Source: the human T2T-CHM13v2.0 reference genome, Homo sapiens
Strand: one strand, 5' to 3'
DNA: 64,000 nucleotides
Assembly: GCF_009914755.1 (NCBI RefSeq)
Contig: NC_060925.1
The notes under the pieces: model-generated
What the model saw: only the letters and a program-made list of their open reading frames with translations
What the model was told of the DNA's origin: nothing
The model's database searches: none
Translations under genes and position numbers: made by a program
Shown here: positions 22,807 to 59,900 of the stretch, in pieces
Layout: every line of letters starts with the position of its first letter
How positions within the stretch are numbered: position 1 is the stretch's first letter

Positions 22807-22888
22807 GTAGTATTGGGCCAGGTGAAAATCCAAGCTTCTCAAGTTGGTTCTGCAATTTACAGTCACTCAGACACTTCACATCCACCAT
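22807..22888 (-). CDS. LEMD1: LEMD1 first coding exon (whole exon 22807-22926), MVDVKCLSDCKLQNQLEKLGFSPGPIL(P); N-terminal half of the LEM domain
   Basis: Peptide visible in ORF 22742..22939(-). Acceptor tttcaag|GATTC at 22926, ATG at 22888, donor C|gtatgt at 22806; 82 coding nt, phase 1. Matches the LEMD1 protein as I recall it. Confidence 0.96.
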
Positions 22889-24341
22889 GATGATAGAAGT
22901 TTGGCCTCTTTTCTGATGGTAGAATCCTTGAAATAACAAAACATTAAATTCATTAAGACAGCCTTACCAATAAGTACTAAAATGTTACCAATCCACATAA
23001 GTGTTTATAATCCTATCTCCCCAACCTCCTAGGTGCACAGGCAATAAAGCAAAAATCAACACTTTCTAGTTCTGCCATAAATCCCTGCTGGGATTAGTTG
23101 CCTCCAATGTAAAACTTTGGATGGGTGTCATTTTCCCCAGTGTCTTTAGGGCTCAATTAGTTACAACTGTTCTGTTCAATGAATATGAGAAAAATCTTCT
23201 GGACAAAATAAACAGATATTTCCATTACTGCTCAGGAACTCTGAGCAAAACTCAAGCTCTGAGAAGATAAGAAGTTAATTAAATATGAAAGAGCTGAGAG
23301 GTATTTTTTTTTTTTTTAGTGAGTTAAATAAAAGTTATTTATCCCTGCCCTCCTTTTGATGACAGGACAGAGAGTACAGAGCATTCAGTTATTGCAAACA
23401 GTAGCAGCTTTCACACTTGTAATTTAACTCTGAACGTTAACAAGATGGTAGTTTTTAATTAACCACCAACAGACTTAGTAATTGCTGAATTGGCATTTGA
23501 AAAAAAGTCAGCTATTCATTCTCTGGCACACAAATTGATTCATATAGATTTATGTAAATCTTGATATGGCTTTCCAAATCTGCACAACCTCAAATTCAAT
23601 CAGTTTTATCCACTTGATCCCTTGATCTCCCAAAGTTGACCCTTCTACCTACATAACAAAATCCGCAAAAAGACAGACCCATTTGTCAAACCTTTTAAAG
23701 GAGATTTTTAAATTTTGGAGTTTATTGTACCACATTTCTATCATGTTTCAAGGCTTTTTAATACTGCAGTGGAAACAACAGCCAGATAATTATTCAGCAT
23801 AGGAGGATCTAGACCAATTTTAAATAATGACTTTGCTTTTGTTGGTGATCAATCAATGTCCAATTAGGAAGAACACTGTATACAAGCTAGAAAAAGTCAT
23901 GAATTGTTATATATAATAGGGTTGTTCTGGAATACCTAGTTTGACAGTTCTCTACTTTAAAGCCATGCTTTAAAGAGAGTTACATTCTAGTACACATAGT
24001 AGGTACCTAGTAAATGTTAGTTTCCTCCTTTTCTATGTGTTTGGGAAACTGACTTAACACTTTGAGGCCAGTGGGAAAAAAACTAATGCTAGGAAGAAAA
24101 AGGACAATGCATCTCAGCACCTCAGATTTTTTTTCTTTCTTTTTTACTGGAAGCTTGCTTCGGCAGATCCTATGACATTTGTTCCTGAGAACAGCTGTCT
24201 GTTGTTTCACCAGCTTCCCAAAAATAACCTCCAATAGAGCCCTCAACAATTTCAAGTGGCACTAGACAATTGCCTAGAGGGAACACACATATGGAAGAAA
24301 AATATTCAAATGGAATCCAACTGGATGATTAATTCACTTAC

Positions 24342-24435
24342 CCCTTCACATGGTTATCTAAAGTCTATGCAATCGAGTTGGTTACTAAAGCTGGGTGAGT
24401 TTCACTCTGAGGTTTCCACTAGCAACCAGTCCCTT
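24342..24435 (-). other. LEMD1: LEMD1 proximal non-coding first exon (5' end approximate)
   Basis: Strong donor GGG|gtaagt (24341-24336) 1.4 kb upstream of the ATG exon, with promoter motifs immediately upstream. Confidence 0.75.
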
Positions 24436-37189: not shown

Positions 37190-37246
37190 CCCTGACAACA
37201 TAATCCATTTACTGCAAAGGGATATAATAAAGTCTGTTTATTACAG
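37190..37246 (-). terminator. Poly(A) site of the BLACAT1 terminal exon
   Basis: Minus strand reads TGTAATAAA (UGUA overlapping AATAAA at 37242-37237), followed by U/GU-rich actttattatatcccttt...ttatgttgtc. Confidence 0.7.
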
Positions 37247-38382
37247 CAATTAACAGAGCAGCGTTTGCCGGCATGCTTTTCAGTGGCAACCAGAAAAGTG
37301 CTTACTCCAGGTGCATAGATTCGGGAAACCATGCAACTTGAGCCAAAATGAAACCAATTAGAGGCTTAGTAAATGGGTTCCAGCCACCCCAGGAAACTTA
37401 ACCATCCACGAGTCAGTTCAGCCGAGGTAGAACCTCAGTGCAGGAATTTAGCATGATATAGATTGCTACTTTACAGAATTAATCCAGACCTGTCGCCAGG
37501 GTTGTGGTCTTGAGGACGTGAAATGTATCCGCCCAACACAGCCACCCAGGTGCTGGGTTCAAATCTCGATAAACTACATAGGGGTATATAGGTGGGGAAC
37601 GTTAGCACCATTGACTCTCAGGGGTCTCTTGCCACTGCCATGGAGGTGGGGACATAAGGAGAGGACTAGAAGCTGGGCCAGAGGGAACAGACAGAGAAAG
37701 AACAGAAATCCTTTCATTAGACCCTGTCTTCAAGAGCCTGGATTGAAATGTGGCCGTCTTGAGTAGGGGTGAGGAGGAATCTACTTTTCAGCCTGGAGAA
37801 TATATGCTATTTTGCTTTAGGCAGAAAGACTGGACAAAGACATGAAGCCATTTGTTCCGGTTCTTTGGTGGAGGGACAGAAGAAAGGGAAGTACGGGTTT
37901 CAATTCCCCAGTGAATCTGATTGCTAATTAACCAAATTTAATTATCTATCCCCTTTTAGGAGGGCAGGGGTTGGCTTATACCACCAACAGGACATTCTTC
38001 AGAATGAAGTTTAATTTTCCCAAGAAGGGAAGTGGCTGCAGTGTCATACCTGTGTAGGAAAAAATCCATCCTGATTGGCAGCTCTTCTCCAGTCTCTCAG
38101 GGAGACCATGCAGAGTTTTGATCTAGAAAACATAAACCTGGGTGCCTGAGCCAGGTAGAAAACCAAAGGCTCAAAAGGGCAGAGACAAACCCCTGTTAAA
38201 CAGTTCCCCCTGGCTGAGGGGTGACCTTAGGGGTTCCCCTTTTCTCCATCACTTTTTCCCATCCTCAGGCCTCTGGGAGAAGATGCTGTGTTAAAGGATG
38301 AGGGCAGAAACCAGCCTGGCCTCTCTGGAACAGAGAAAGTTAGAGCTTTGAGCATCATGAACAACGGGATAAAAATAGCAGT

Positions 38383-38396
38383 GTTGCCATGGCAAC
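38383..38396. promoter_or_regulatory. Perfect palindromic RFX X-box
   Basis: GTTGCCATGGCAAC; the palindrome extends to 16 bp (38382-38397). Confidence 0.65.
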
Positions 38397-40084
38397 AGAG
38401 GCTGGGAGAGTCCTGAGGATCTGTCTGGGTCCTGCCATCTCCCCCTCCTGCCTTCCTCCCGCCCCTCAGATGGAACACGGGAATGAGCTGAAGGAGGAGA
38501 GACGGCTGCCCCAGAAGGGAAAGAGACAGACCAGCAGCCCACGAGGAAAACCCTTGAACTCCAGACTTGGGGGGTGGTTTCTGTCAGCTCCTGAGCTGCC
38601 CAGGTCTGGGAGCTCTTGGCTTTGGCAATTTCTTCCTCAGTATGACGACTTCCTCCAGGGATGCCCTGGGCAGCTACCGCTCACCCTCCTGGTGGATGGT
38701 TCTGACCTCCTGGGCTCCTCCGTGAAGAGTCAAGGTTCCTGTTTCTTCTTCATGATCTATAGTTCCTATCCCATGGAAATTTAGAGAAGCGAACCCAGGC
38801 GGACTGGCCACAATAACCCCGGCACAGTGGGCACTGACCACTCCAGGGATGGCCTGGGGGTCCAGAGGATTCACCCTGACAAGGCAGATACCCTTGTCAG
38901 CAATATGGACTTGGGGGGCTGTGTTTGTGTTGGGAGCAGGGTGATGATGGTGACAGCTCTCTCTTGCTCTTGCTTTTGGGTCAGAGAGATAGAACATTCA
39001 TTCCTTGGGAACAGATTCTGTTTCTTGGTTCTTGTGGTACTGTCAGCTTGATCACCTGCTGGACATAGCAGCCACCTTCAGGAGGAACACCAGACTTCCT
39101 GGACCAGCCTGCAAGGAGCCCACTGAACTCAGCAGCCCAGAGATTTTCTTCTCTGGTGAAAGCCCACCTTTGCGGTTGTGAACCAAGTATCTGTCTCCAA
39201 AAGTTCCAGCCACATCTGGGCACATCTGATAAGTGTGCCCTTTATAATGCGTGCCTTCCTGTGAGGTAGGGAGGAAATGGGACTCATCGCCACCTGTTAT
39301 GGAGGAGGCTGGGAGAGAGGAGGCAATTTGCCAAGGTCAGGAGTCAGTCATGGCAGAACACTGGGGGGCTGTGGCTCTCCATCCAGAAACAATCACCAGC
39401 ACATTCCACCACCAGCACATCTCCAGCCACTGGGCAAAATGCATATTCAGTCTGTAGACAGGACAAACTCCAGCCTGAGGCACTTCCCCTTGCAGAAGGC
39501 AAGGAATGAGGTGGGGTGGTTTGATCAGCATGGAGATGAGCACATGAGGAGCTGTGCAAAGGGAAGCCCATGGGTTACATAACTGGAGCAGAGCGCCAGT
39601 CCTTGAGATCTCTTCTAGAATCACTTGAGCATCTATCTGCAGGTGGTTGTGGTGGTGGTGGTGGTGATGCTGTGTGTATGTGACAGAGAGAAAGTGAGAA
39701 CGTACATAAGAGTGGCGCCTGTGATGGCCTAGACAGGACCTGGAGTCAGAGTCTAGGCCAACTGACTTACTCCCCTTGGGCCTGGCTGTAGGAGGGAAGA
39801 GAGGCAGAACTGCAAGGAGTCCTGGGCCCTGGCTAGGGGAAGATTCTAGCAGAAGCTCTGGGTGACTTGCCTTTCCCTCTCACTCCCCCTCTCACTTCTC
39901 AGAGCCACCATACCACTTCCATCCACCCTCCAGATATGTCTGTTGTCTGCACGGAGTGCATCTGTGAGGGCAGAGGAAACCTGCGACCCTCTGGTTCCAC
40001 AACCCTATGCCCCACTGAGGCTCAACTTCCCAGACTCACAGAGCCCTGGACTCCAAAGGAGACTTAAGAGGAAATTTATGTAAT

Positions 40085-40215
40085 CCCCTATTTATAGTTG
40101 AGGAACCTGAGTCTCAGAAATAAGACATGACTAGTCTAAGGTCACATAGGTCATTAGTTTCCAAGCAGGGCTAGAAGCCAGGAGACCTGGCTCCCAGCTC
40201 AGTGCTCCTTGCATC
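40085..40215 (-). mobile_element. MIR
   Basis: gaggaacctgagtctcagaaa ... aaggtcacatag. Confidence 0.7.
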
Positions 40216-43200
40216 CCACTCTAACACTTCATGTGTATTTCAGTTAGTTAATTATTGCTCTTTTTTTTTCCTAAAAATAACAATCTCCCTATATATTTCT
40301 ATGAACCCATATGCTACATGCAAAAAGCCCTTCCCTGGGAGCAGAGAAGGAAATGACATTCTGATAAAAAGGTTTCAACCTGAGACAAGAAGCCCCTTGG
40401 GTCCTGTGGGCCAGGGTCCTAGGCAACACTCAAGTCACAAGGACCCCAAGCACCCTTCACACTTCTTGATCTTCCATTCAGCAGCCTGAAGCCCAAGAGG
40501 GAAAATGGCCATGGGAAGTCCTCGCTTTACAGATGGGGAAAACTGGCCCCCTCACCCATCTGCAAGGAGGAATCAGTGCCACGCAGCAAGAACAAGAGGC
40601 CTGATCTCCTCCACAGAATCATCTACCCATGTGCCCCTCCCTCACCCCAAGAGCTCAGGGCCCCCACCTCAAGGTGGAGTCTCTGGGAGAGAACCATGGA
40701 GAGAGGATGGGAAGGCAGGGCAGCCAGGCCCACCCTAGAAGGAGCAGAAGCCTGGCCCGAAGTCAGAGGCCCAGGGCGCAGGGTCTGCGAATGCTGGGGC
40801 TGCTTTGGCCTTTCCCTATTCCCTGGGCTCATCCAAGGGCCTAGAGGAGGGCACAGGTGTCCAGACTGCTTCCTGAGATGCTAAAAGGAGCAAAGTCCCC
40901 ATTTTCCTGAGAAGGAAACTGAGGGACAATAGAATGTGGGGTTGGGGTGTGCCTGGCTAGAAGCTGCTACCTCCTGCTCAGACAATTCCAGCTGCAGTGC
41001 TGGCCCCAACCTCAGCCCTGGGTGAAGAAGGGGCTGCCGGCTTGGAGGCAGAGGACAACTGGACCTCCACTCAGAACACTTTGACCTTGGGACCCCACCC
41101 ATGTTCCCAAAGCCAGGGCTCAAGATATCTAGTATCCCTCTGGAGCCAAGGGAGTTCTCCCGGGGGAGGAAGCTCTCTGGATGGGCTCACTGCCAAACCC
41201 CTGCAGCTGCAATCCCTGCCAAGGCCTGAGAGGCGCACAAGGGGAAAGCTCTCCTCGGCCACCCGCTCCCCAGGACGTACTTTCTCCACTTTCCTAACCT
41301 TTCCTCCTGGTGAGCCTGTGTGGTCAGGACATAACACCCAATATCTCTGAGTCTCCGGGGATACAATTTCATCCTCTGCCACAGAAGTGACTTTTCTAGG
41401 ATTGCAGCCTCGCAGGTGACCGCTAGGGAAACACATGCCCTCCAGGAGGCTCTCTGGCCTCTGTATCAAGGTAACTTTTTCTGCCCATCTCTTTGCCTCA
41501 CCCAAGGCCTCTACTATCCAAGAGGACAAAGAACCAGGGAGTTTTTCTTCTGTCCTTTGTGACCCCACTGGCCTTTATTGCTGAATCTTGCTGTTCCCTT
41601 GAGGGAAGGACTTCCGTTTATAATTCTTTGGATATAAAAGGAAATAACAGATTGTAGAAGGTGGGGGCTAGGAGGTAGGGGCAAAGGAAGGGGTTGGAGG
41701 ATGGGAGGAGGAACTCAAGCTGTGCTCAAGCCTCATAAAGACAACCTGAATCCCACCCAATCTGCCCAAAGCCCAGGAAAGGCCCCTGAGTGTGGGCATG
41801 AGCTGGGCAGGCAGAGGCTGCCAGCATAGAATGTGCCCTTGCTTCTCCCAGGTTTTGGGCGAACCAGCCGAGGAAGACTTTTGCCCTCCCTAGTTGCCCA
41901 GAGAGGCCCACATTCCAAGGAAAGGGGAGCCCTGACTCTCCTATCTTGGGGCCTTGCCCTCTCTACCCAGGTCACCTGTTTACCTGTCAGAAGGGCTATT
42001 CTGTCCCTGGGGAGCTAGAGGGGGTCTGACTTTGCTCCTTGGCTGAGCTGCTCCCTGATGAGGGAGAACAGGCTTACAGAATCTGCCTGAAGCACCTCTG
42101 CTGCTGGCATTCGTCTCTGCCTGTCTTCTAGCCCCGGAGAACTCCAGGATCAAAGACAAAAGGCTAAGTTATACCAAAATGAAGGGAGAGAGGAAGGAAG
42201 GAAGAAGGAAAGAGGGAAGGAAATGCTTTTTTCTTTTGCTTCCTACCTCCTGGAAATGGGCTGGGGGTAAGGGCAGAGGCTGAAGCTGGAAGGTTGGCGG
42301 GGGTGGGGGATGAGGGAAAAAGTCGAGGAAGGTCCTAGAGGTCCCCCTACCCTAAGAGTTTCCACCGAAGGCACCACATACGAACGCAGTCCCCTCTATG
42401 GCTTCTGAGGAGAGAAGAAAAAGGCAGGGGAGACAGGAGAATCGAGGGAGGGCACGGCTCAGTCCAGGAAAGGGGTCCCTCAGTCTGGCCACGGCAAGAC
42501 AGTCCCTGAGGAGGGGAGTCAGGGCCTGGGGAACAGGCCTCCCCACATCTGTGATGCTGGCAAGGAGGCACAGGCATCATGAACACGGGTGGGTCAGGGC
42601 CGGGGCTGGAGGAAACACTGCTTTCTGGAGAGCAAGAACAGAGGGAGCCACGGAGCCACTGGCCACCTCTGCCTTCCTCCTCACTGGGCTGGCCACCTCA
42701 GGCCTGGCCCCACCTGGCCCAGGAGGATGCTGGCAGGGGGCTGGAAAAGGATTCTTGCCCCAGGTCCTGGAATCCCAGGAGAGTCTCACACTTCCGCCCT
42801 GGAGGCCTTCTCCAGGGTCAGGGCTGCTGGAAGTTCTCTGCTAGAGCAGCCAGTTTCCCATTTAGCAACAGCTCTCCTAGCCCAAGGCGGCACATGCCTC
42901 ATGCGGTTACCCTGAGAAGAGTCCCCCGAAGCTCTCAGGGCAGGAAAGAAGTTTCACTCCTTGGCCTCCCTGGGGCTTCTCAGTCTCTGGAAGGCATGCG
43001 GCAGGTCCTGGGGTTCCCCCTTGTGTGGCTGGGGCCTCTCTCCAAGGAGGTCTGAGAATTGGAAGCTAATGGGTGTGGGCATGAGGAGGATGAGAGGCAC
43101 ACAGGAGGCTGATGCCCTCGGGTGAGAGTCAGGCTGAGAAGAGCACTGGCTAAATCAAGACTTAAGATACACACACGGCTTCCTGCTCCAAGCCCCAGCC

Positions 43201-43262
43201 AGAAGCAGGCACCATCAGGCCTGGGACCTGCTGGGGGCTTGATGGAGGGGCCCTGGTTCTGA

Positions 43263-43364
43263 TCACACCGCCGTCTCCCGCTCTCTGTGAACTTCCTCCT
43301 TCTTCCTCTTCATTTTGCAGAAGCCGTGGAGACCACAGAAGCAGGCGAAAGTGAACTGGGGCAT
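43263..43364 (-). CDS. BLACAT1: 33-aa microprotein MPQFTFACFCGLHGFCKMKRKKEEVHRERETAV
   Basis: Hand-translated: ATG 43364-43362 (G at -3, in-frame TAG two codons upstream), TGA 43265-43263. It is the first ATG after a strong acceptor (long pyrimidine tract + ccctgcag|, exon start 43400). Matches the BLACAT1 peptide as I recall it. Confidence 0.85.
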   Translation of the reverse strand: MPQFTFACFCGLHGFCKMKRKKEEVHRERETAV

Positions 43365-46300
43365 GCCCTACGCCAGGCTGGGGGAACACTCACCAGAGAT
43401 CTGCAGGGAAAGGCAGGGGAGGGAGAGGGGGCAGGAGAAAGGCAGGAAGAGAGAAGCAAGCTGGGGTTAATGCTCCCAGAACCCTCTGGGTCTGGCCCAG
43501 TCATTGCCACTCCCTGAGGCGGCCCGCTAGGTCTCTCACACCGGCTGGGGGAGGAGTCAAGCCTCTAAACAACAGCTCTTTGAAACCTCAGTGTTTCCTG
43601 ATCTGTGTGGAGCTGATGTCATTCCTCACATTGGAGACAGGGTGAGTCCAAGGGAGGAAAGAGAATGCCCAGCTGCTGCCTCCTTTTTTCCCCTCCCACC
43701 CGCTCTGCCCCACCTCATCACCATATACCTGTGGTTGGGGAACAGGAAGCAAGCTGGCTTAAAATAGCCTCCGGCTTGTGCCACCTTACACCAGGTTCTA
43801 GCTGGGGGCTTCCACTCGCTTCTGCAGGTTGCACACACGACAGGCCCTCCTCCATCCAAATGCGGACCCCTTCATCCAGTGTAGCTTTACTTTGACACCT
43901 GGGACCGAGTCAGATTCCTCCCTTCCTTAACAACCCCAAGTTGTCTGACACCCTAGGAAAGCCTATAGGGAGCAATTATACCCTTCCTTTGACTGCTCAG
44001 GGCAATGCAAATCCCATCCTCACCATGCAGAGAAGAGACAGCAAAGAGGGTTCTTTTAGCCAACAGGCTCTTTTATTTAGCACCTATGCTGGGCAAAGGG
44101 TTGAGAGGTAGATACAAAAGGGTAAAGACATGGTTTCTTCCCTGGCACATAAGTCTGAGGTAGAGGCTGAGGCTGGATCTGCCCCAGCTGGACACGCTGT
44201 CCCCCACCTCTGGCTGACCCGGCCCTCAGCAGGAGCCAGGGGCCGCTCTGGTATCTGTTGCAGTCTGGCTGGGGAAGAGAGGGAGCTTCAGGAGCTCAGC
44301 TTCAGTCTGCAAGAGTATCCCTTTCTCCAAAGGCTCATTTAGGTTTCCCTAGCCTTAACCACCTGCAGATTTTTCCAGTTCACCTCTCTGCCCTTCCTCT
44401 GCCCCTGGGCCTATGGAAAGGGAGCAGAAGTGCACTCAAGCCACTCAAGCGGAGAAGCTGAGAACAAAGGAAGGAAAGCGCCCTGCGTGGAGGTCAGGCC
44501 GGGGCCTGGTCTGAATCACTCCTCTCTCCAGGAAGAACATGGGGGCAAGCAGGTGAGTGAAGCCCAAGTGCTGCGGGGAAGGAGGGAGGCACAGGGCTAT
44601 GCTGAAGGGGTTTGGAATAGGGAAGCATGAGGCGCCTCCCTTCTCCAGCCCCTCAAGCAATAGAGATTGCATAGGATGTCCTGGGTTACCCCAGCAAGGC
44701 ACATGTGCAAAGTGGTTTCACTGCCTTTGAGGAATGTGGCATGGCCCAGATGGTGGCTCTCTGGACAGTTCCACTGGTCTGGACAACCTTGCCCTTTTGG
44801 AAAAACTTCCTTCGTGTTTCTCCAGACAGAGCCAAGGCCCACACCAAGCACAGTGCCCGGTGGATCCAAGTCCTGTCAAGATTCTCCCCTCCCTCAGCCT
44901 CTCAGCGTCCCGGTAATACAGCTAATAGCTGTAATTAATAGGTGCAATGCATTTCCACTGGCCAGCTGGATGGGCAGGAGGCCCAGCTTGAGTCAGCATG
45001 GGTAGGTAGGCTGGTTATTTAATAACCCGATTTCCAGCATCATTTACACACCCACTCTGGTGGAGTATATATAGTTAGCAGAGAGCAACCTCCAGGATAT
45101 ATATAGAGCCAAGACACAACTACTATATTTCTAGATCTATCCCCTGCAGCTATCTCTGGATCCCTCCTGTGACAAACCTAGAGAGAGACGGGGATCCAAT
45201 CTGGGACTTAGGTGGCCTGGGTTCTATTCCTGGCTCTGATGCTAACATGCTGTGTCATCCTAAGCAAGTGGCTACATCTCTCTGGGCCTTCATTACCTCA
45301 TTTCAGTGTACCAGGAGATTAGGCAAGATTTAACACTAAGACCCCAAACCTAAGGGGCTGGAATCCTAACTTGATCCGGAAGGAGGGAGGGAGGGCAGGT
45401 GGATTCCCGTGTAATCAGTTATTGTCACACGTGCACTTCTCTTGCTGGGGATATAAGTCAAGGGTATGATCAACAAAGCAGTCCCATGATTATTGAAAAA
45501 TACATGGGGAGAAATTGACAGGCACAACAAGGCTAATCTGGGAAGGAACTCCCAACTAAAACAAGCCAGGCAGGTAGCAGCCCCACAAACAGGTCAAGGT
45601 GCAGCTCAGGGTCTCTGGCCCCAGAGTGCATCGATCCCCTTTCCTTTTCACCCCACTTCCTTTTCAATGACTGTTCTTTCTTAAAAACAGCAGAATATAC
45701 CCCCTTAAATGACCCGTTCCTCCCCAGGGTCCTTTGGGGGAATTTAAGAAAATCCTGGCTTTTTTTGCTCAGCTTGTCACTGTAGGGAAGGATGGGGAGT
45801 GAGGTCACAGGAACCAGAACCTACACATCAGAGGAAAGGAGAGCTAATGAAGCTGGCCAGGAGCTGGGCTAGGGGCTGTAGCCTGGCTCCCGAGAGGTGT
45901 TCGAGGGCTGGCTGCCTCAGTGGGATTCCTGGGTCCTTGTATCTAAGAGTAGAAAGTATCATAAACAGGGCCTGGTTATTCTGCTCAGATCTTTGCTCTA
46001 AAGTGCTCTGGTTATCCTTCCTCTTCTCTAACAGGGTCTCTAAAAGGGTCCTCACTGTAAGGTGCACAACTCCATGCCCCGGAGGCTGCCTGGGCTCTGT
46101 CTGCAGCATGCAGATTGCCGGGCCAGCCCCTGAAGTGGGGGGACATGGGGCAGAGAATTCCAACCCATTTCAGTATCCCTGCCCGCTGTGAACCCCACTC
46201 CTCCCTCAGAGTCCCCAGCAGCAGGTACCTGGGGAGTCCCTCTGCCAGGCTGTGGTCTCTGCTCCTCTCTGCTTTGCTCGAGCAGGAGTCCTGTCGACTC

Positions 46301-47602
46301 TCTTCCCTGACTTTACCCCTTCACCCTTGGCAGAGGGCTCCAGTACCAGCTGGAGGCTCCCTGAAGTCAGGTCCCCTTGCTGCGTCTATTTGAGGGGGAG
46401 GAGTCTGGACTAGCACCTGGGTCCACTCCCCACTCATCAGAGCTCATCATGGGAACTCCCCTCCCATCCTCCCCCTCCTTTTCCATGCCCATAGTCCAGG
46501 AGGGACTAAGGAATGGAAAAACAGCCCCCAGAAAAACAGAAGCCCAGAATAGGATGGAGAGGCAGGGTGGACACTGGACAAACCTCCTGCTACCACACAG
46601 TTGGCTGCATCTGACTGCAAGCTGTTGGCCCTGGCTTCTTCCCCATCCTCCTCTCTGGCTTTTTCCCAGCTCAGGTCCAAGATGGTTTACGGTCTGGGGG
46701 CACAGACGATGCCCTGCCCAGCCAGCTTTGTGGGAGCCAAGCAGAAGAGATGCCAATCCATAGAGCATCCGTCCTCCCCCACCACTAGGAGGTTCCTCGG
46801 CCTCCCTGCTGATCCTTTCCCTTGGCCTGACCCCCACATCTCTCTGTGCCAGATACTCTCCTGGGGTCCTCCAACCCTTGCACCTCTGGCAAAAATGGGG
46901 CAGTGAGTCAGAGACAGCATGAACATGTGGAAGAACCAAGAGAAAGAGGAGACTCAGAGCAGGCCAGAAAGTAAGATAAAGAGAAATCCAGGGCCCCAGG
47001 CTTGCAGACCACAAACTCCTAGGTGTCTCGAATTTTGGCAATGTCCTTCATCAGAGTGGGCGGCAGCGGGGGTGGAAGGCTAGGAAGCTATTTAAAAGTG
47101 CTGGGGCATGCCAGCAATTCTCTGATAAACAAGAAGAGGGATATTGCGCCCCCCACGACCCATCCCTTCATCTCCCAAGGCAGAGAGCAGAGGCACTCTC
47201 AGCAAGGCAACCCCCACCTTAACTCCCCGCCACCCCCCACCCCAGGTAAAGGGCAAAAGAGAAGTGACCCAGTAAGGAGGGTGTGCCCTCGACGCCTCTA
47301 GAACAAAGCTGAGCCCTCCGCCCCCTCCCCGGCTCCCTTAGCACCGCGTCTCAGTAATTAAAATATGAATTCACCTTCCCTCCCTGAGCCATTCATCACT
47401 GCGAAGGGAAGCAGCTGCGGCTTAGGAGACCGGATTTGGGGGATTAGCTCGGGCGGTGGAGCAGACACACCAGGAGAAAGAATTAAAAACGAAGGGGGTG
47501 AATTGGGTTTTCTCTCCCCACCTCCTCCCTCTCCCTCTCCCTCTGGCCGCCACGGAGCCTCCTTCCCCACCCCTTCCCCCAAAGCCTAGCCTCTGCAGGT
47601 TT

Positions 47603-47681
47603 CTGGGAACTGTAGTCTACAAGACCGTGTTGATAAACAGGCAGGCCAGGGGTGGGTGGTGGCACAAACTACAGATCCCAG
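47603..47681. promoter_or_regulatory. Divergent pair of ACTACAnnTCCCAG (ZNF143/THAP11-associated) motifs
   Basis: ACTACAGTTCCCAG on - (47603-47616) and ACTACAGATCCCAG on + (47668-47681). Confidence 0.55.
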
Positions 47682-49479
47682 GACTTCTTCCCGGAGTTGG
47701 CACCAGCAAAACTGGGCACAGACCTCCAGTCTGGGAGAAGCCCGCATTCTCCTTGGAGGTTAACTCCTTCTTGGCCTGCTTGAGCCTGAGCTCTAGCCTC
47801 TGGCTCACCGAGCTCTCTGGAATCACAGGCCAAGGCCTCTGCCTCCAATGGCCTTCAGAGACCACAGACCCTAGCTTGCCAGACCAGCCACCCTTGTATC
47901 TTGCTTGCCCACCTATGGAGAAAGCTCCCTCCACTTTTTCCAGACTGCAAGGGCAGCCAAGCATTCTCAGTGGTTCTCAGATTCTTGGGAGCTGGAGAGG
48001 TCAGAGCAGCAATAGTCCTGAAATGTCTTTGTGGCCTGCACTCAGTGTTTTCCAGCCTGGCTCGGCAGAGGCTGGCCCACCGTAAGAGTGGGCAACGTGA
48101 CAGGCAGCAGCAGCTGGGAACCTGGTGGACCAGACTGTCAGCGCCAGAATGAACCCCAAAGGTCAAACTTTAGTGTCAAACTTTCGAAAGATGGGGAGAG
48201 AGACTTTTTTTCCCCAATAGTCTTTATATTTAGGAAGGAGTAGGGCTTAGTAGTCAAACTCTATTTCCACTAAAAATGGAACAAATACAATAAGAGAGAG
48301 TCATCTGAATTCAGTGTTGTTAAACATGGGCCCACTCTCGCAAGGGAGGCCTTATGCTGGGTATATCTGAGGACTGTAAAAAAGACTTAGATTGCTGGGA
48401 ATAAAGTTTCAGCCGTCTGCAGGCAGGGGACAGGACACACACAGCCCTCTGATCTGTGAATCCTCCAGGGAGAAGGGACATGAGGGCAACTTGCTTATTC
48501 AATGCAATTGAACAATCATGTGAAATATACAATCACATATCTTCTCCAGGCCTGTCCCACTGGCAGTAGCCAAGAGACAAAGAATAGAATGGAGATCCAC
48601 CTTTGTAACCCCCAGAAGCAATCCAGGCCCAGCCCCAGCAAAGCGAGGACTGTCTCGGGTGAGTTGCTGAGCTGTGGGCTTGCTCTATGTCCCTGCTGGT
48701 GGCAACTTACCTCTTTTACCCCATCCATCTTTTCTCCCAGTTCGTACTTCATTCAACAAACATTTACTCAGCCATCCCTACAAAGTCCCTTGCCTTGCTA
48801 GAGCTTTACAGAGGTATAATCTCTGGAATGGCTCATCTGTACCCTTCCTCCTAGGCTGAGCCCAGTGCTGGGGACTACCCGGGCAAACTGAACAACAGGA
48901 TTCCCGGGAGGGGCCCAGTTGCAGGGGGCAGGAAGGTGGCATGGCTCTAACCTGGCTTTCCAGTTAGGAGATCAGGAGTTAAGGGAAGGAAATCAGGTGC
49001 CTGGACAGCCTCAGAGCAGGGTAGGGAATAGGATAGGCTCACTGTGGGCCCAGGGCAGCTGGACAATGAGGGAGGTGGAGGAAGGTGCCAGCCATCTCTG
49101 AACTCTGGGTGAGAGAACCCAGAGGGCAAGTAAGAAACCCTGGCCAATTCTCATGCCTTGTTCCTTTCACCATCTAAGCTGGGGCAGGAGGGGAAGTAGC
49201 CTGGATCAGCCCCAGCAAAAACCCAGCTGGCTTGGGATTTCTCTTTGCTTCTCCTATTGTTCTGATCCCCCGGCTCCCCCCGACCTCCTGTGGGAAAAGG
49301 AAAACCAGTGATGGACAAAGGGTGATTGGAGTTGGGCCACGGGGCCAATTTGTGGACGTGCATCCAATAGAGATCTCGTGAGAACAACCTCCCGTCTGGG
49401 TACAGCACTCCCTGGTTTTCAGAGTACTTTCCCATGCACTGGTGTTGGCTCTCCCAATATGCAGCATGATGTGCTAAGA

Positions 49480-50642: not shown

Positions 50643-50739
50643 GGAGCTCGCCCCTCACTGTAGCCCATGGCTTTTAGCCCTACATGAGTTTGGGACAGCA
50701 ATCACATAGGAATGAAAAGCCATAGGCCACAGCAGAGTG
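50643..50739 (-). ncRNA. MIR135B: pre-miR-135b hairpin; 5p UAUGGCUUUUCAUUCCUAUGUGA at 50702-50724, 3p AUGUAGGGCUAAAAGCCAUGGG at 50664-50685
   Basis: Exact match to the mature miR-135b sequence; complementary arms; CNNC motif (CUCC) 18 nt downstream of the 3p end. Confidence 0.98.
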
Positions 50740-51957: not shown

Positions 51958-52208
51958 GCCCCTCCACACACTCCAGACATGCCCAACCTTCAGGGCCAAA
52001 CAACCAGGCATCCTGCGGCCTCCCACCTGAACTTTGGGCCATCTGCCCCAGCCCCAACCCCCTCTGGTTCTCCTTTCCTTCCTCTCTCATGGGCCCCCAG
52101 AACCCCAGACCCAGGCCCTGCATAAAGCCATGGACTCTAGGCAGAATGCCCTCAGCTCCCTCCCAAGGGATGCTGGGCCAGGGGCTGGGGGTCCCAGGGG
52201 CTGCTCAC

Positions 52209-52290
52209 CTGGCGGACTCAACAAGGCCCCCTTTCCCTCGCAGTCCGCCTCACAATTCCCCGCAGAGCCACTTCCTGCCTTCCAGGCAGC
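52209..52290 (-). other. Candidate distal first exon for LEMD1/BLACAT1/pri-miR-135b (5' end approximate)
   Basis: Donor CAG|gtgagc at 52208, 1.5 kb upstream of the miRNA. ETS core near 52270, AP-1 TGACTCA 52402-52408 and GC boxes upstream. Confidence 0.55.
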
Positions 52291-52624
52291 CACTCACTCC
52301 TCCACTCACCCCGAGAAGCTCCACGCCCCAGCGAGGGCAGGCCTCCTCCCTCCCCCTGCCCGCCCACCACCGGCCAGGGCTGAGCTGTACCCAACTCAAC
52401 TTGACTCACTTGTGACCGGCCCCTCCCCCAGCCCTGAGGACGGTGGGGGTGGGGGTGGGGGCGGGCTGGGCAGGCGGGGCAGCCAGGTATTCCTTCAACC
52501 CTGACTTGGGCCTGAGTAACAAAGGTCTCATTGAGCCTCTGGCTGTCTGGTCGGTGAAGCACAAACCTCTTGTATCTACTGGCTTTTGATCTCACTCCCT
52601 CTGAACCAGCCATGTATTACTCAC

Positions 52625-57999: not shown

Positions 58000-59900
58000 G
58001 GAACAAAGGCAATGGGGGCGGGGAGGGGGCTTCCTCTTTGGTCGACCTAGGGCGGCGGCTGACGCAGCCCGCCGCCGGTCAGCTTTCAGGTGAGTGCCTG
58101 AACCCGCATCCCGCCCATGCCTTAGGGACCCCTCTTCGCCCAGCCAAGCCCGGGGCGGGGAGGAAAGTCCCCCTCAGCCGCACTCGGGCCCCCAACCCGG
58201 CCAAGGGGTCGCCAACTCGCGGCACTTTCTGCCTGTTTGTTTTCGCTCAGTACTCACAGTTTAGATGCTAAGCCGGCTCCTCTTGCACTCACTTCCTTTG
58301 TGTCTCTCTCTCTCTTTCTCTCTCTCTCCCCCTCACCAATCTCTTTCTTCCCTCCTTGTCCGATTCTCTGCTGTAGCTTCCAGTGGAGAAAAATAATTAT
58401 TCTTCAATGGGTTAGCACGGGGCGCACGCACACACGCGCGCGCACACACACCCCGCCGAGGTACCCAATCAATGCACAAATCTTCGGGGTCCCTTTAACC
58501 TCTGCGGATGACTCCGGGAGTTAATTATGAAGCCTATTTCGGCGCGGCATAAATATGCATTAAGGTAGGAAATAATCGATACGCTGAACTTCTGGGAACT
58601 GGCATTTAGACGGACTCCGTCTCGCCGCCCCCCACTCCCTCCATGGCCCCACGAGCCACCTCCACAGCCTCGCGCCTTCCCGGGGTCGCAACGCCTATCA
58701 CAAGCTTCTACCCGGGTTTCAGGGGGCCCCTGTAGTGGCGTGGGCGCCGCGCCGGTGCCGGGAGACCCCCTCGTGCGCCCTCTGCGGTCGGGGCAGACCC
58801 TCAGCCGGAGCTTCTTCCTCCCCCACCCCTGCAGGCCGGGCCCAAGCTGCGACACCCCCAGCACGGGCTCAGCCTGTGAACAAACTCCGAGCTCAGTACT
58901 CGGAGGAACTGGCGAGAGCGGGACGGCTACCTGCCCGCACGCCCGATTTCCGGGCACAGCTAGAAAGACCGGGACGCGATTCAACTCCCAATCCGGTGAA
59001 TCCGCCTAGCGCCTTCGGGTCCTGCCGCCCCCGGCCAGTCCCGACCCGCACACATATGCAGGCATTTGCACACACGCGCGCACACACATGCACGCACATG
59101 CACACACACATATGCACACCCTCGCGCACACAGACACTCCCGCGCGCGCTCACGCCCGCACACACTCAGGGTTATAACAAAGGAAGAGGGGCCAGCGCTG
59201 CCTTACTTTTGTCTCTCTTCTCTCTTTTGCAGCCCCCCAGCCCCGGGGCCGGCGTGCCCGGCCCACCCCGCCCTCCGCGCCCCCCGACGGCCGCGGTCAG
59301 CCGGCATTCCGGAGCAGCGCGTCGGAGCTGCAACTTCGCGCCTAAGCGCCCGCACCTCGCAGCCCGGCGGGCGGGAGACAAAAGCTGCGGCGCCGCCGCC
59401 GGAGGCCGCGCGGCCAAGGTGTGTTCGCTAATTGTCAGGAAATGTGTGTGTGTGCGGCCGGGAGCCCGCAGGGGCGGGGGAGGGGACGGAGGAAGAGGAG
59501 ACCCACCCCTCCTACCCCCGCCACTCGCCAGCGCCGGGTACCCGAACCGGGATTAGAGAATAAATTATCTGCTCTCTTCTCATTGGGCTGTGGCTGAGGA
59601 CGCCGTCGGCGGCGCCGGGCTGGGAGCTCTCCCGGCTCTTTGCATTCACCGCACAGCTCCGGCTCGCCTCGCTTCGTGGAGGCCGAGAGCCCGGGGCCTC
59701 GGCTCCAGACATCAGGGGACACCAGCCGGCTGGCCGCGCCGCCCCGCCCCTCCCCTCCCCCGCCACCCGGCTTGGCCTCAGCCCCCTCCCCTCCCAATTC
59801 TGGCTTGGGTCTTGGGGACGAAGATACTAGGGGAAAAGGCCTAGAGGCCGAAGATCCCAGTATCTTTCCTCCTCTCCCGCCACGCCCCCTTCCCAAGGAG
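58000..59900. promoter_or_regulatory. CpG island, probably a bidirectional promoter (BLACAT1 on -, divergent lncRNA on +)
   Basis: Dense CpG, GC boxes, splice donors on both strands. Confidence 0.85.
58258..58430 (-). other. Candidate most-distal BLACAT1 first exon (two tandem donors)
   Basis: Donors GAA|gtgagt (58292-58287) and ACT|gtgagt (58257-58252) at the CpG island edge; the exon contains no ATG. Confidence 0.55.

What the first reader, a model, noticed from the sequence alone, without database searches (positions are those of the whole stretch)
43388..43410. Perfect 5' splice site 7 nt inside the BLACAT1 terminal exon: candidate microexon / recursive-splice switch
Seen on -: ...ccctgcag|ATCTCTG|gtgagt (acceptor 43400, donor 43393-43388), 29 nt before the micropeptide ATG. 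Inference: using this donor would remove the micropeptide ORF, the 6-kb UTR and the poly(A) site, and let the RNA splice on to LEMD1 (acceptor 22926). Ignoring it gives the BLACAT1 mRNA. One site could therefore toggle between the two proteins.
Basis: partly seen in the sequence, partly recalled or inferred. Interest (0 to 1): 0.8.

Follow-up and report, generated by a model that had tools for sequence, protein, structure and literature searches.

The report
Unused splice-donor motif inside BLACAT1's last exon
A strong splice-donor-like sequence really does sit 7 bases inside the last exon of the human BLACAT1 RNA, but nothing available here shows that it is ever used, so it is best read as a retained pseudo-donor and not as a proven switch to the neighbouring LEMD1 gene.

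Summary
The sequence is as described. On the minus strand it reads ...ccctgcag|ATCTCTG|gtgagt, with the exon starting at 43400, the donor G at 43393 and the micropeptide ATG 29 nt further on. "Perfect" is overstated: CTG|GTGAGT matches 8 of 9 consensus positions, with U at -2.

Sixteen of 3017 minus-strand GT sites score as well, and only 2 of those 16 are annotated donors. The motif itself is at chance frequency. Its position next to a real acceptor has a post-hoc chance of about 0.6-3%.

It is not a recursive splice site, because AG and GT are not adjacent.

It does resemble the core layout of neural microexons. The pyrimidine tract is 58 nt and A-free, the longest of 4669 YAG sites in the window. 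UGC lies at -5 and -15, and GCAUG at +28.

Use of the donor could not be tested: no junction data and no other vertebrate genome were available. The gene table supplied with the finding lists no exon ending at 43394. Thirteen nearer acceptor-like sites and a poly(A) signal 6.15 kb downstream would compete with LEMD1.

The annotated exons already imply a BLACAT1/LEMD1 choice at acceptor 43400 from a shared first exon. My best reading is a retained, U1-complementary motif that favours nuclear retention.

The parts
43388..43396 (-). 5' splice-site-like 9-mer CTG|GTGAGT (donor G at 43393).
   Evidence: One search gives the sequence. One search gives 8/9 consensus matches, one of 16 such sites among 3017 minus-strand GT sites. 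Its computed U1 duplex energy is -11.1 kcal/mol, tied second among those 16. One search finds it as the only copy of this 9-mer in the window. It is the only 8/9 site in the terminal exon.
43394..43400 (-). The 7 nt ATCTCTG between the annotated acceptor and the donor-like motif: the candidate microexon, or the first 7 nt of the BLACAT1 terminal exon.
   Evidence: The supplied gene table puts the exon start at 43400.
43401..43467 (-). 3' splice-site region of the BLACAT1 terminal exon. It holds the CAG (43403-43401), a 58-nt A-free tract (43404-43461, 52/58 pyrimidines), UGC at -5, -15, -33, -44 and -58, the nearest upstream A at -62, and the only YUNAY branch-point-like motif, with its A at -67 (43467).
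   Evidence: The A-free run is the longest of 4669 YAG sites on both strands of the window (99.9th percentile 34 nt). The other 4 annotated acceptors have runs of 0-8 nt.
43263..43364 (-). Annotated BLACAT1 micropeptide ORF (33 aa plus stop), starting 29 nt after the donor G.
   Evidence: supplied gene table.
43362..43366 (-). GCAUG pentamer (an RBFOX-type motif; the name is recalled) 28 nt downstream of the donor, overlapping the ORF's ATG.
   Evidence: The background is 65 copies on the minus strand, about 1 per kb, so this is weak evidence.
37223..43400 (-). BLACAT1 terminal exon (6178 nt), with AATAAA at 37242-37237, 6151 nt after the donor, and an internal AATAAA at 41579.
   Evidence: supplied gene table.
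52209..52295 (-). First exon shared by BLACAT1 (to 52295) and long LEMD1 transcripts (to 52283), with the common donor CAG|gtgagc at 52208. This implies an annotated choice between acceptors 43400 and 22926.
   Evidence: there is no AG upstream, so it is a first exon, and the donor is 8/9. Exon list from the supplied table. The exon chains themselves are inferred.
22807..22926 (-). LEMD1 exon carrying the start codon (ATG at 22888), with acceptor tttcaag|GATTCT.

Best explanation
The GTGAGT at 43393-43388 is a strong U1-complementary 5' splice-site motif. In every BLACAT1 transcript in the supplied annotation it is not spliced and stays in the RNA, 8 nt after the last exon junction. It is most likely a pseudo (cryptic) donor.

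[quoted passage not shown] Once the upstream intron is removed it has no nearby committed partner, so cleavage at the poly(A) site 6.15 kb downstream usually ends the RNA first.

Where it has an effect, the likeliest one is that U1 snRNP binds the motif on the mature or nascent RNA and favours nuclear retention and decay through the U1-70K/ZFC3H1 route. That would keep BLACAT1 mostly nuclear and limit translation of the small ORF.

Shown: the motif, its strength, its position, and its retention in the annotated exons. Inferred: U1 binding, retention, and that productive splicing is rare.
For: - The motif is present and strong: 8/9 consensus, one of 16 such sites among 3017 minus-strand GT sites, with no stable local structure to hide it (z = +1.14).
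- The supplied gene table lists the terminal exon only as 37223-43400. No exon ends at 43394 in 4 BLACAT1 or 9 LEMD1 transcripts.
- Strong donor-like motifs are usually unused here: 14 of the 16 minus-strand 8/9 sites are not annotated donors.
- The 9-mer and the 7-mer occur at chance frequency.
- Such motifs are depleted from the first 500 nt of mRNA 3' exons, but less so in lncRNAs (PMC4380460).
- BLACAT1 is reported to be preferentially nuclear in bladder cancer cells (review PMC7445530, passage).
- The poly(A) signal at 37242 is transcribed about 14 kb before the LEMD1 acceptor.
Against: - No data on U1 binding or on localisation of transcripts that carry this 5' end were available.
- The motif fails the -2 A of the consensus as printed in PMC4380460.
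[quoted passage not shown] Here it is 6.15 kb from the 3' end.
- Many lncRNAs are nuclear for other reasons. The originally described linc-UBC1 was a 2616-nt (the review prints 'kb'), single-exon RNA that may not include this 5' end.
- The 3' splice-site layout matches what is described for SRRM3/4-dependent microexons: UGC at -5 and -15, no A for 58 nt, a strong donor, and GCAUG at +28. That fits real use of the donor in some cell type.
- A 7-nt exon is easily lost by aligners (my knowledge), so its absence from the annotation is weak evidence.
Confidence: 0.4

Rival explanations
1. Chance motif with no consequence. The GTGAGT is one of many donor-like sequences that arise at random. It is neither spliced nor functionally bound.
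For: - The motif is at chance frequency: 1 against 0.73 expected, and 7 against 9.3 expected.
- Fourteen of the 16 equally good minus-strand sites are unannotated.
- Microexon-spaced acceptor/donor pairs occur 2 times against about 1.3 expected in the window.
- Donor-like sites are not enriched in the terminal exon: 14 against 11.9 expected.
Against: - Placement within 7 nt of one of only 5 real acceptors has a post-hoc chance of about 0.6-3% (arithmetic).
- An accessible 8/9 site would be expected to bind U1.
Confidence: 0.25
2. The 7 nt ATCTCTG form a true microexon. The donor at 43393 is used after, or together with, acceptor 43400 and splices to LEMD1 exon 22926. The BLACAT1 terminal exon is then a composite terminal exon, and the choice between splicing and polyadenylation selects either the LEMD1 mRNA or the BLACAT1 micropeptide mRNA. 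This might depend on SRRM3/4 in neural-type cells.
For: - The donor is strong.
- The layout matches that described for SRRM3/4 microexons: UGC between branch point and AG in 74-79% of them, a long branch point-AG distance, and a strong 5'ss (bioRxiv 10.1101/2024.09.17.613571, passages). Here UGC lies at -5 and -15, no A occurs for 58 nt, and the best branch-point-like A is at -67.
- GCAUG lies at +28.
- 22926 is the next annotated acceptor.
- The insert leaves the LEMD1 ORF intact and adds no uATG with 3 of the 4 first exons tested.
- LEMD1 and BLACAT1 are both high in Group 3/4 medulloblastoma, a neural-lineage tumour (PMC7654754, passage).
Against: - No annotated transcript has the exon (supplied table).
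- Thirty-eight acceptor-like sites precede 22926, 13 of them inside the terminal exon.
- AATAAA at 37242 comes 14 kb before the LEMD1 acceptor.
- No retrocopy preserves such a junction.
- UGC and GCAUG are short motifs expected often in a CU-rich tract.
- No paper in the library holds both LEMD1 and microexon (0 papers).
Confidence: 0.12
3. The donor is used but pairs with a nearer acceptor inside the annotated terminal exon, for example the sites at 42624 or 42404. This would remove the micropeptide ORF as a short intron while keeping the BLACAT1 3' body and poly(A) site.
For: Thirteen acceptor-like sites lie in the terminal exon. The two nearest, 42624 (Py 0.90) and 42404 (Py 0.95), lie 770-990 nt downstream. 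They are far closer than LEMD1 and come before any poly(A) hexamer; the first AATAAA is at 41579.
Against: No such exon boundary appears in the supplied table. The acceptor scoring was a crude rule of my own, not a trained model.
Confidence: 0.1
4. U1 decoy. U1 bound 7 nt from the AG sterically hinders U2AF at acceptor 43400. This favours skipping of the BLACAT1 terminal exon and therefore the long LEMD1 isoform.
For: The two sites are only 7 nt apart. The shared first exon 52209-52283/52295 implies that 43400 is an optional acceptor (and the supplied table). The long pyrimidine tract with a distal branch point is typical of regulated acceptors (PMC1431707, passages). PTBP1/2 repress intronic poly(A) terminal exons flanked by CU repeats (PMC8559711, passage).
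Against: There is no direct evidence. The acceptor is used efficiently enough to define all 4 annotated BLACAT1 transcripts.
Confidence: 0.05

Closest known systems
Intact 5' splice-site motifs in terminal exons of mature RNAs (U1-70K/ZFC3H1 nuclear retention and decay; Lee et al. 2015 PMC4380460 and Lee et al. 2022 PMC9074902, passages read)
   Same: A U1-complementary donor motif is retained in the last exon of a polyadenylated RNA. The RNA is reported to be nuclear (review passage).
   Different: The motif has U at -2. It lies 8 nt after the junction and 6.15 kb from the 3' end, whereas in the reporters it lay near the 3' end. Dependence on U1-70K/ZFC3H1 is untested.
SRRM3/4-dependent neural and endocrine microexons (bioRxiv 10.1101/2024.09.17.613571, passages read)
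   Same: A very short exon length; UGC close to the AG; a long branch point-AG distance; a strong 5' splice site.
   Different: No evidence of inclusion. It lies in a 5'UTR or lncRNA context and is 7 nt long, so it does not preserve frame. Its acceptor is used on its own as the start of a 6.2-kb terminal exon. Conservation is unknown.
Composite terminal exon type of intronic polyadenylation (Tian et al. 2007, as cited in PMC8559711, passages read)
   Same: If the donor were used, the same 3' splice site would give either an internal exon or a terminal exon that ends at a downstream poly(A) site inside the long first intron of LEMD1.
   Different: Only the terminal-exon form is annotated. As annotated, the event is of the skipped-terminal-exon type. 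The internal exon would be only 7 nt.
Recursive splice sites and RS-exons (Sibley et al. 2015 and Duff et al. 2015; recalled, not read here)
   Same: A 3' splice site is followed closely by a strong 5' splice site inside a long intron. LEMD1 intron 52208-22927 is about 29 kb.
   Different: AG and GT are not adjacent. No 5' splice site is regenerated at the junction, and 7 nt would remain in the product.

Membership tests
Recursive splice site (zero-length exon) | The 3' splice-site AG is directly followed by GU, so that ligation regenerates a 5' splice site. | tested here: not met
   AG|AUCUCUG|GUGAGU. Seven nt separate AG and GU, and the first exon bases are AU.
Recursive splice site (zero-length exon) | Intermediate lariats or a saw-tooth read pattern in nascent RNA. 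| not testable with these tools
   No RNA-seq data are available.
Microexon (cassette exon of 27 nt or less) | A 3' and a 5' splice-site sequence flank a very short exon. | tested here: met
   YAG with a 58-nt pyrimidine-rich tract, 7 nt, and an 8/9 donor.
Microexon (cassette exon of 27 nt or less) | Observed inclusion between two other exons in transcripts. | not testable with these tools
   No junction or cDNA data. The supplied RefSeq table has no exon 43394-43400. No retrocopies of the flanking exons exist in the genome.
SRRM3/4-dependent microexon | A UGC motif between branch point and AG, a long branch point-AG distance, and a strong 5'ss (features as given in bioRxiv 10.1101/2024.09.17.613571). 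| tested here: met
   UGC at -5, -15, -33, -44 and -58; nearest A at -62; YUNAY A at -67; donor 8/9. These are sequence features only and do not prove regulation.
SRRM3/4-dependent microexon | Inclusion responds to SRRM3/4; evolutionary conservation. | not testable with these tools
   No expression data and no other vertebrate genomes are held. states that the genome has no relatives here.
Composite terminal exon (intronic polyadenylation) | A poly(A) signal lies downstream of an unused 5' splice site within the intron. | tested here: met
   AATAAA at 37242, 19 nt before the annotated 3' end and 6151 nt after the donor.
Composite terminal exon (intronic polyadenylation) | An alternative isoform exists in which that 5' splice site is spliced. 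| not testable with these tools
   Not in the supplied annotation, and no read data.
5'SS-motif nuclear retention element | A consensus 5'SS motif is present in the terminal exon of the mature RNA. | tested here: inconclusive
   The motif lies in the annotated terminal exon (and the supplied table). It matches 8/9 positions but fails the -2 A of the motif as printed in PMC4380460.
5'SS-motif nuclear retention element | Nuclear retention depends on U1-70K/ZFC3H1. | not testable with these tools
   The only support is a review statement that BLACAT1 is preferentially nuclear (PMC7445530).

The most novel reading that the evidence does not exclude
ATCTCTG is a genuine 7-nt microexon of the SRRM3/4 type, which standard aligners and annotation have missed. 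In neural-lineage cells that express the locus, such as Group 3/4 medulloblastoma, and perhaps in testis, the donor at 43393 is spliced on to LEMD1 exon 22926. The BLACAT1 terminal exon then acts as a composite terminal exon. One splice-versus-polyadenylation decision chooses between a micropeptide-coding, nuclear-prone BLACAT1 RNA and the mRNA for the LEMD1 cancer-testis protein.
Probability: 0.12. Interest if true: 0.55.

Novelty: new member of a known kind. Interest (0 to 1): 0.27.

Why it matters
BLACAT1, LEMD1 and miR-135b are co-located, cancer-associated products of one transcription unit. How a cell chooses among them is not described in the papers I could search.

If the donor is merely retained, it gives a simple, testable reason why an RNA now annotated as protein-coding behaves like a nuclear lncRNA, and why its micropeptide may be poorly translated.

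If the donor is used, the locus would be a compact example of a microexon that doubles as the head of a composite terminal exon, linking two oncology-relevant gene products. It would also be a concrete case of a 7-nt exon hidden from annotation.

Either outcome can be settled cheaply from existing RNA-seq and long-read data.

Tried and rejected
- **Retrocopies.** I looked in the T2T genome for processed copies that might preserve a spliced junction. LEMD1 exon 22807-22926 and the shared first exon 52209-52295 each match only their own locus. The 301 nt around the site are also single-copy.
- **RNA structure.** Nothing hides or presents the donor: 151 nt fold no better than shuffles, z = +1.14.
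- **U1/poly(A) asymmetry (telescripting signature) in the terminal exon.** Donor-like sites number 14 against 11.9 expected. Poly(A) hexamers number 4 against 6.3 on the sense strand and 1 against 6.4 on the antisense strand. I attribute this to the exon's higher G+C (0.535 against 0.486), not to a signal.
- **Coding effect of the 7 nt on LEMD1.** There is none with first exons 58386, 52295 and 43804. With the 1182-nt first exon 48556, several uATGs exist with or without the insert.
- **Local repeats.** Only 10-17-nt two-copy matches were found.
- **Rfam.** Only mir-135 was found, at 50652-50738.
- **Literature.** No paper holds LEMD1 plus microexon. The 12 papers with BLACAT1 plus micropeptide and the 3 with BLACAT1 plus Ribo-seq are, by their listings, reviews or unrelated studies. 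Of the 18 papers with BLACAT1 plus LEMD1 I read passages of three, and none discusses splicing between the two genes. Supplements were not searched.
- **Not done.** MaxEntScan or another trained splice-site score was not available. Strength rests on consensus matching, a computed U1 duplex energy, and a crude pyrimidine-tract rule of my own.
Full report
**1. The observation**

Read on the minus strand, the window shows ...tttccctgcag|ATCTCTG|gtgagtgttccc.
- The intron AG is at 43402-43401 and the first exon base at 43400, which is the annotated start of the BLACAT1 terminal exon.
- The 7 nt occupy 43400-43394, and GTGAGT occupies 43393-43388.
- The ATG of the annotated small ORF is at 43364, 29 nt after the donor G. 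Positions 43364-43263 translate to 33 residues and a stop.

One correction applies: the 9-mer CTG|GTGAGT matches 8 of 9 consensus positions, with U instead of A at -2, so it is strong but not "perfect".

**2. Is it more than chance?**

The motif itself is not enriched.
- CTGGTGAGT occurs once in the window against 0.73 expected.
- GGTGAGT occurs 7 times against 9.3 expected.
- Of 3017 GT sites on the minus strand, 16 reach 8/9 and none reaches 9/9.
- Only 2 of those 16 (52208 and 47374) are annotated donors. Of the 9 annotated minus-strand donors, only those 2 reach 8/9.

By this crude measure the site is as good as the best real donors of the locus. Its computed U1 duplex energy of -11.1 kcal/mol ties for second among the 16. 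But most equally good sites are unused.

Microexon-spaced pairs also arise at about chance rate.
- Pairs of an acceptor-like and a donor-like (at least 8/9) site 3-27 nt apart occur twice in the window, at 43400 and 52433.
- About 1.3 are expected by my arithmetic from 164 acceptor-like and 40 donor-like sites.

What is unusual is that this pair involves one of only five true acceptors on the strand (43400, 22926, 21704, 18649 and 369). The other listed exons have no AG upstream and are first exons. That gives a post-hoc chance of about 3% for a 3-27 nt spacing and about 0.6% for 7 nt or less. This is suggestive and no more.

**3. Surroundings**

- The 301 nt around the site are single-copy in the T2T genome.
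- There is no stable local RNA structure: z = +1.14.
- There is no Rfam family nearby other than mir-135 at 50652-50738.

The 3' splice site is remarkable.
- The 58 nt before its CAG contain no A and are 52/58 pyrimidines.
- This is the longest A-free run before any of the 4669 YAG sites on both strands of the window. The 99.9th percentile is 34 nt, and the other four annotated acceptors have runs of 0-8 nt.
- The nearest A is at -62. The only YUNAY motif in the upstream 120 nt has its A at -67. The branch point must therefore lie beyond the conventional 40 nt (PMC1431707, passages).
- UGC occurs at -5, -15, -33, -44 and -58.
- A GCAUG lies 28 nt downstream of the donor, overlapping the ORF's ATG. 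The background is about 1 per kb.

The terminal exon carries AATAAA at 37242, 19 nt before the annotated end and 6151 nt after the donor. It has an internal AATAAA at 41579. The 43393 site is the only 8/9 donor-like site in the exon. Donor-like and poly(A) motifs show no meaningful enrichment or depletion there.

**4. What the annotation already implies**

BLACAT1 has four first exons, with starts at 58386, 52295, 48556 and 43804, and none has an AG upstream. Its only acceptor-bearing exon is 37223-43400.

Long LEMD1 transcripts start in the same exon (52209-52283) and use the same donor, CAG|gtgagc at 52208. A BLACAT1-versus-LEMD1 decision is therefore already implied at the level of using or skipping acceptor 43400. 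In that view the BLACAT1 terminal exon is a skipped-terminal-exon type of intronic polyadenylation event in the first intron of long LEMD1. The classification follows PMC8559711. The exon chains are inferred from the exon list.

The long CU-rich tract with a distal branch point fits a regulated acceptor. PMC8559711 reports that PTBP1/2 repress such events where they are flanked by CU repeats. The donor at +8 is therefore not required for a toggle. At most it would give a second chance to continue to LEMD1.

**5.

The stated consequences are geometrically right. Splicing from 43393 would remove the ORF, the exon body and the poly(A) signal. The 7 nt would sit in the LEMD1 5'UTR. They create no upstream ATG and leave the LEMD1 ORF untouched with first exons 58386, 52295 and 43804.

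Several points weigh against it:
- It is not a recursive site, because AG and GU are 7 nt apart and the junction does not regenerate a donor.
- Thirty-eight acceptor-like sites lie between the donor and 22926. Thirteen are inside the terminal exon, and the two nearest, at 42624 and 42404, are only 0.8-1.0 kb away.
- The poly(A) signal is transcribed about 14 kb before the LEMD1 acceptor.
- The supplied table lists no exon 43394-43400 in any of 13 transcripts.
- No retrocopy preserves a junction.

Some points favour it:
- The layout matches the core architecture reported for SRRM3/4-dependent microexons: UGC between branch point and AG in 74-79% of them, a long branch point-AG distance, and a strong 5'ss (bioRxiv 10.1101/2024.09.17.613571, passages).
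- LEMD1 and BLACAT1 are both highly expressed in Group 3/4 medulloblastoma (PMC7654754, passage).
- A 7-nt exon is easily missed by aligners (my knowledge).

Whether the donor is used could not be tested.

**6. Best explanation**

I read the site as a retained pseudo-donor. The motif stays in every BLACAT1 RNA in the supplied annotation, 8 nt after the last junction.

Work from one laboratory shows that an intact 5'SS motif in the terminal exon of a mature RNA causes nuclear-speckle targeting, nuclear retention and decay through U1-70K and ZFC3H1. It also shows that such motifs are depleted from the first 500 nt of mRNA 3' exons, but less so in lncRNAs (PMC4380460 and PMC9074902, passages). 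A review states that BLACAT1 is preferentially nuclear in bladder cancer cells (PMC7445530, passage).

The inference is that U1 binds the motif and helps to keep BLACAT1 nuclear and its small ORF poorly translated.

Caveats:
- The -2 position does not fit the motif as printed in PMC4380460.
- The motif is 6.15 kb from the 3' end.
- The originally described single-exon linc-UBC1 may lack this 5' end.
- No binding or fractionation data for this site were seen.

I give this reading 0.4. The rivals are:
- an inert chance motif, 0.25;
- use of the donor with an acceptor inside the terminal exon, 0.10;
- a U1 decoy that suppresses acceptor 43400, 0.05.

**7. Comparison with what is known, and novelty**

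The closest known kinds are:
- retained 5'SS motifs in terminal exons;
- SRRM3/4 microexons;
- composite terminal exons;
- recursive splice sites, whose defining AG|GU juxtaposition was tested and not met.

I found nothing in print on this site.
- No paper in the library holds both LEMD1 and microexon.
- The listings for BLACAT1 with micropeptide (12 papers), LEMD1 (18) or Ribo-seq (3) show reviews and expression studies.
- Supplements were not searched.

Under any reading it would be a new member of a known kind.

**8. Verdict**

The decisive test is a microexon-aware look at existing junction and long-read data, together with conservation of the GT. It is simple but lies outside these tools. 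Interest is modest, at 0.27. If the microexon switch were shown, I would rate it about 0.55.

Noticed in passing
window 52410-52433 (-) and 52304-52310 (-): A second microexon-like pair: ccgtcctcag|24 nt|gtgagtca, with its first exon base at 52433 and an 8/9 donor at 52409. It lies about 140 nt upstream of the annotated start at 52295. A GGTGAGT also lies at 52304-52310, just upstream of that start. Neither is annotated, which shows that such pairs arise without known use.
   Followed up: no
window 43729-43804, 47375-48556, 52209-52295, 24342-24408 (-): None of these annotated exons has an AG before its first base, so all are first exons. BLACAT1 therefore has four alternative starts feeding one acceptor (43400). 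The one at 43804 lies only 328 nt of intron upstream of that acceptor.
   Followed up: partly
window 41574-41579 (-): An AATAAA lies inside the BLACAT1 terminal exon, 1814 nt after the exon start region. It could give a much shorter 3' end than the annotated 6.2-kb exon. The literature describes linc-UBC1 as a 2616-nt (printed 'kb' in the review) single-exon RNA, so the mature forms may be heterogeneous.
   Followed up: no
window 43362-43366 (-): The micropeptide start codon is embedded in GGCAUGC, which contains the GCAUG pentamer. A splicing-factor site and the start codon would overlap if both are real.
   Followed up: no
window 58090, 44553, 25229 (+): The only three 9/9 consensus donor motifs in the window are on the plus strand, opposite to BLACAT1/LEMD1. 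None coincides with a donor of the only plus-strand gene in the supplied table, LEMD1-DT. The donor after its exon 59233-59418 is AAG|GTGTGT at 59419, which scores 8/9.
   Followed up: no
window 50652-50738 (-): Rfam mir-135 hit (84.1 bits), matching the annotated MIR135B. It lies in the intron between the shared first exon (donor 52208) and both candidate acceptors, so it is released whichever acceptor is used.
   Followed up: partly
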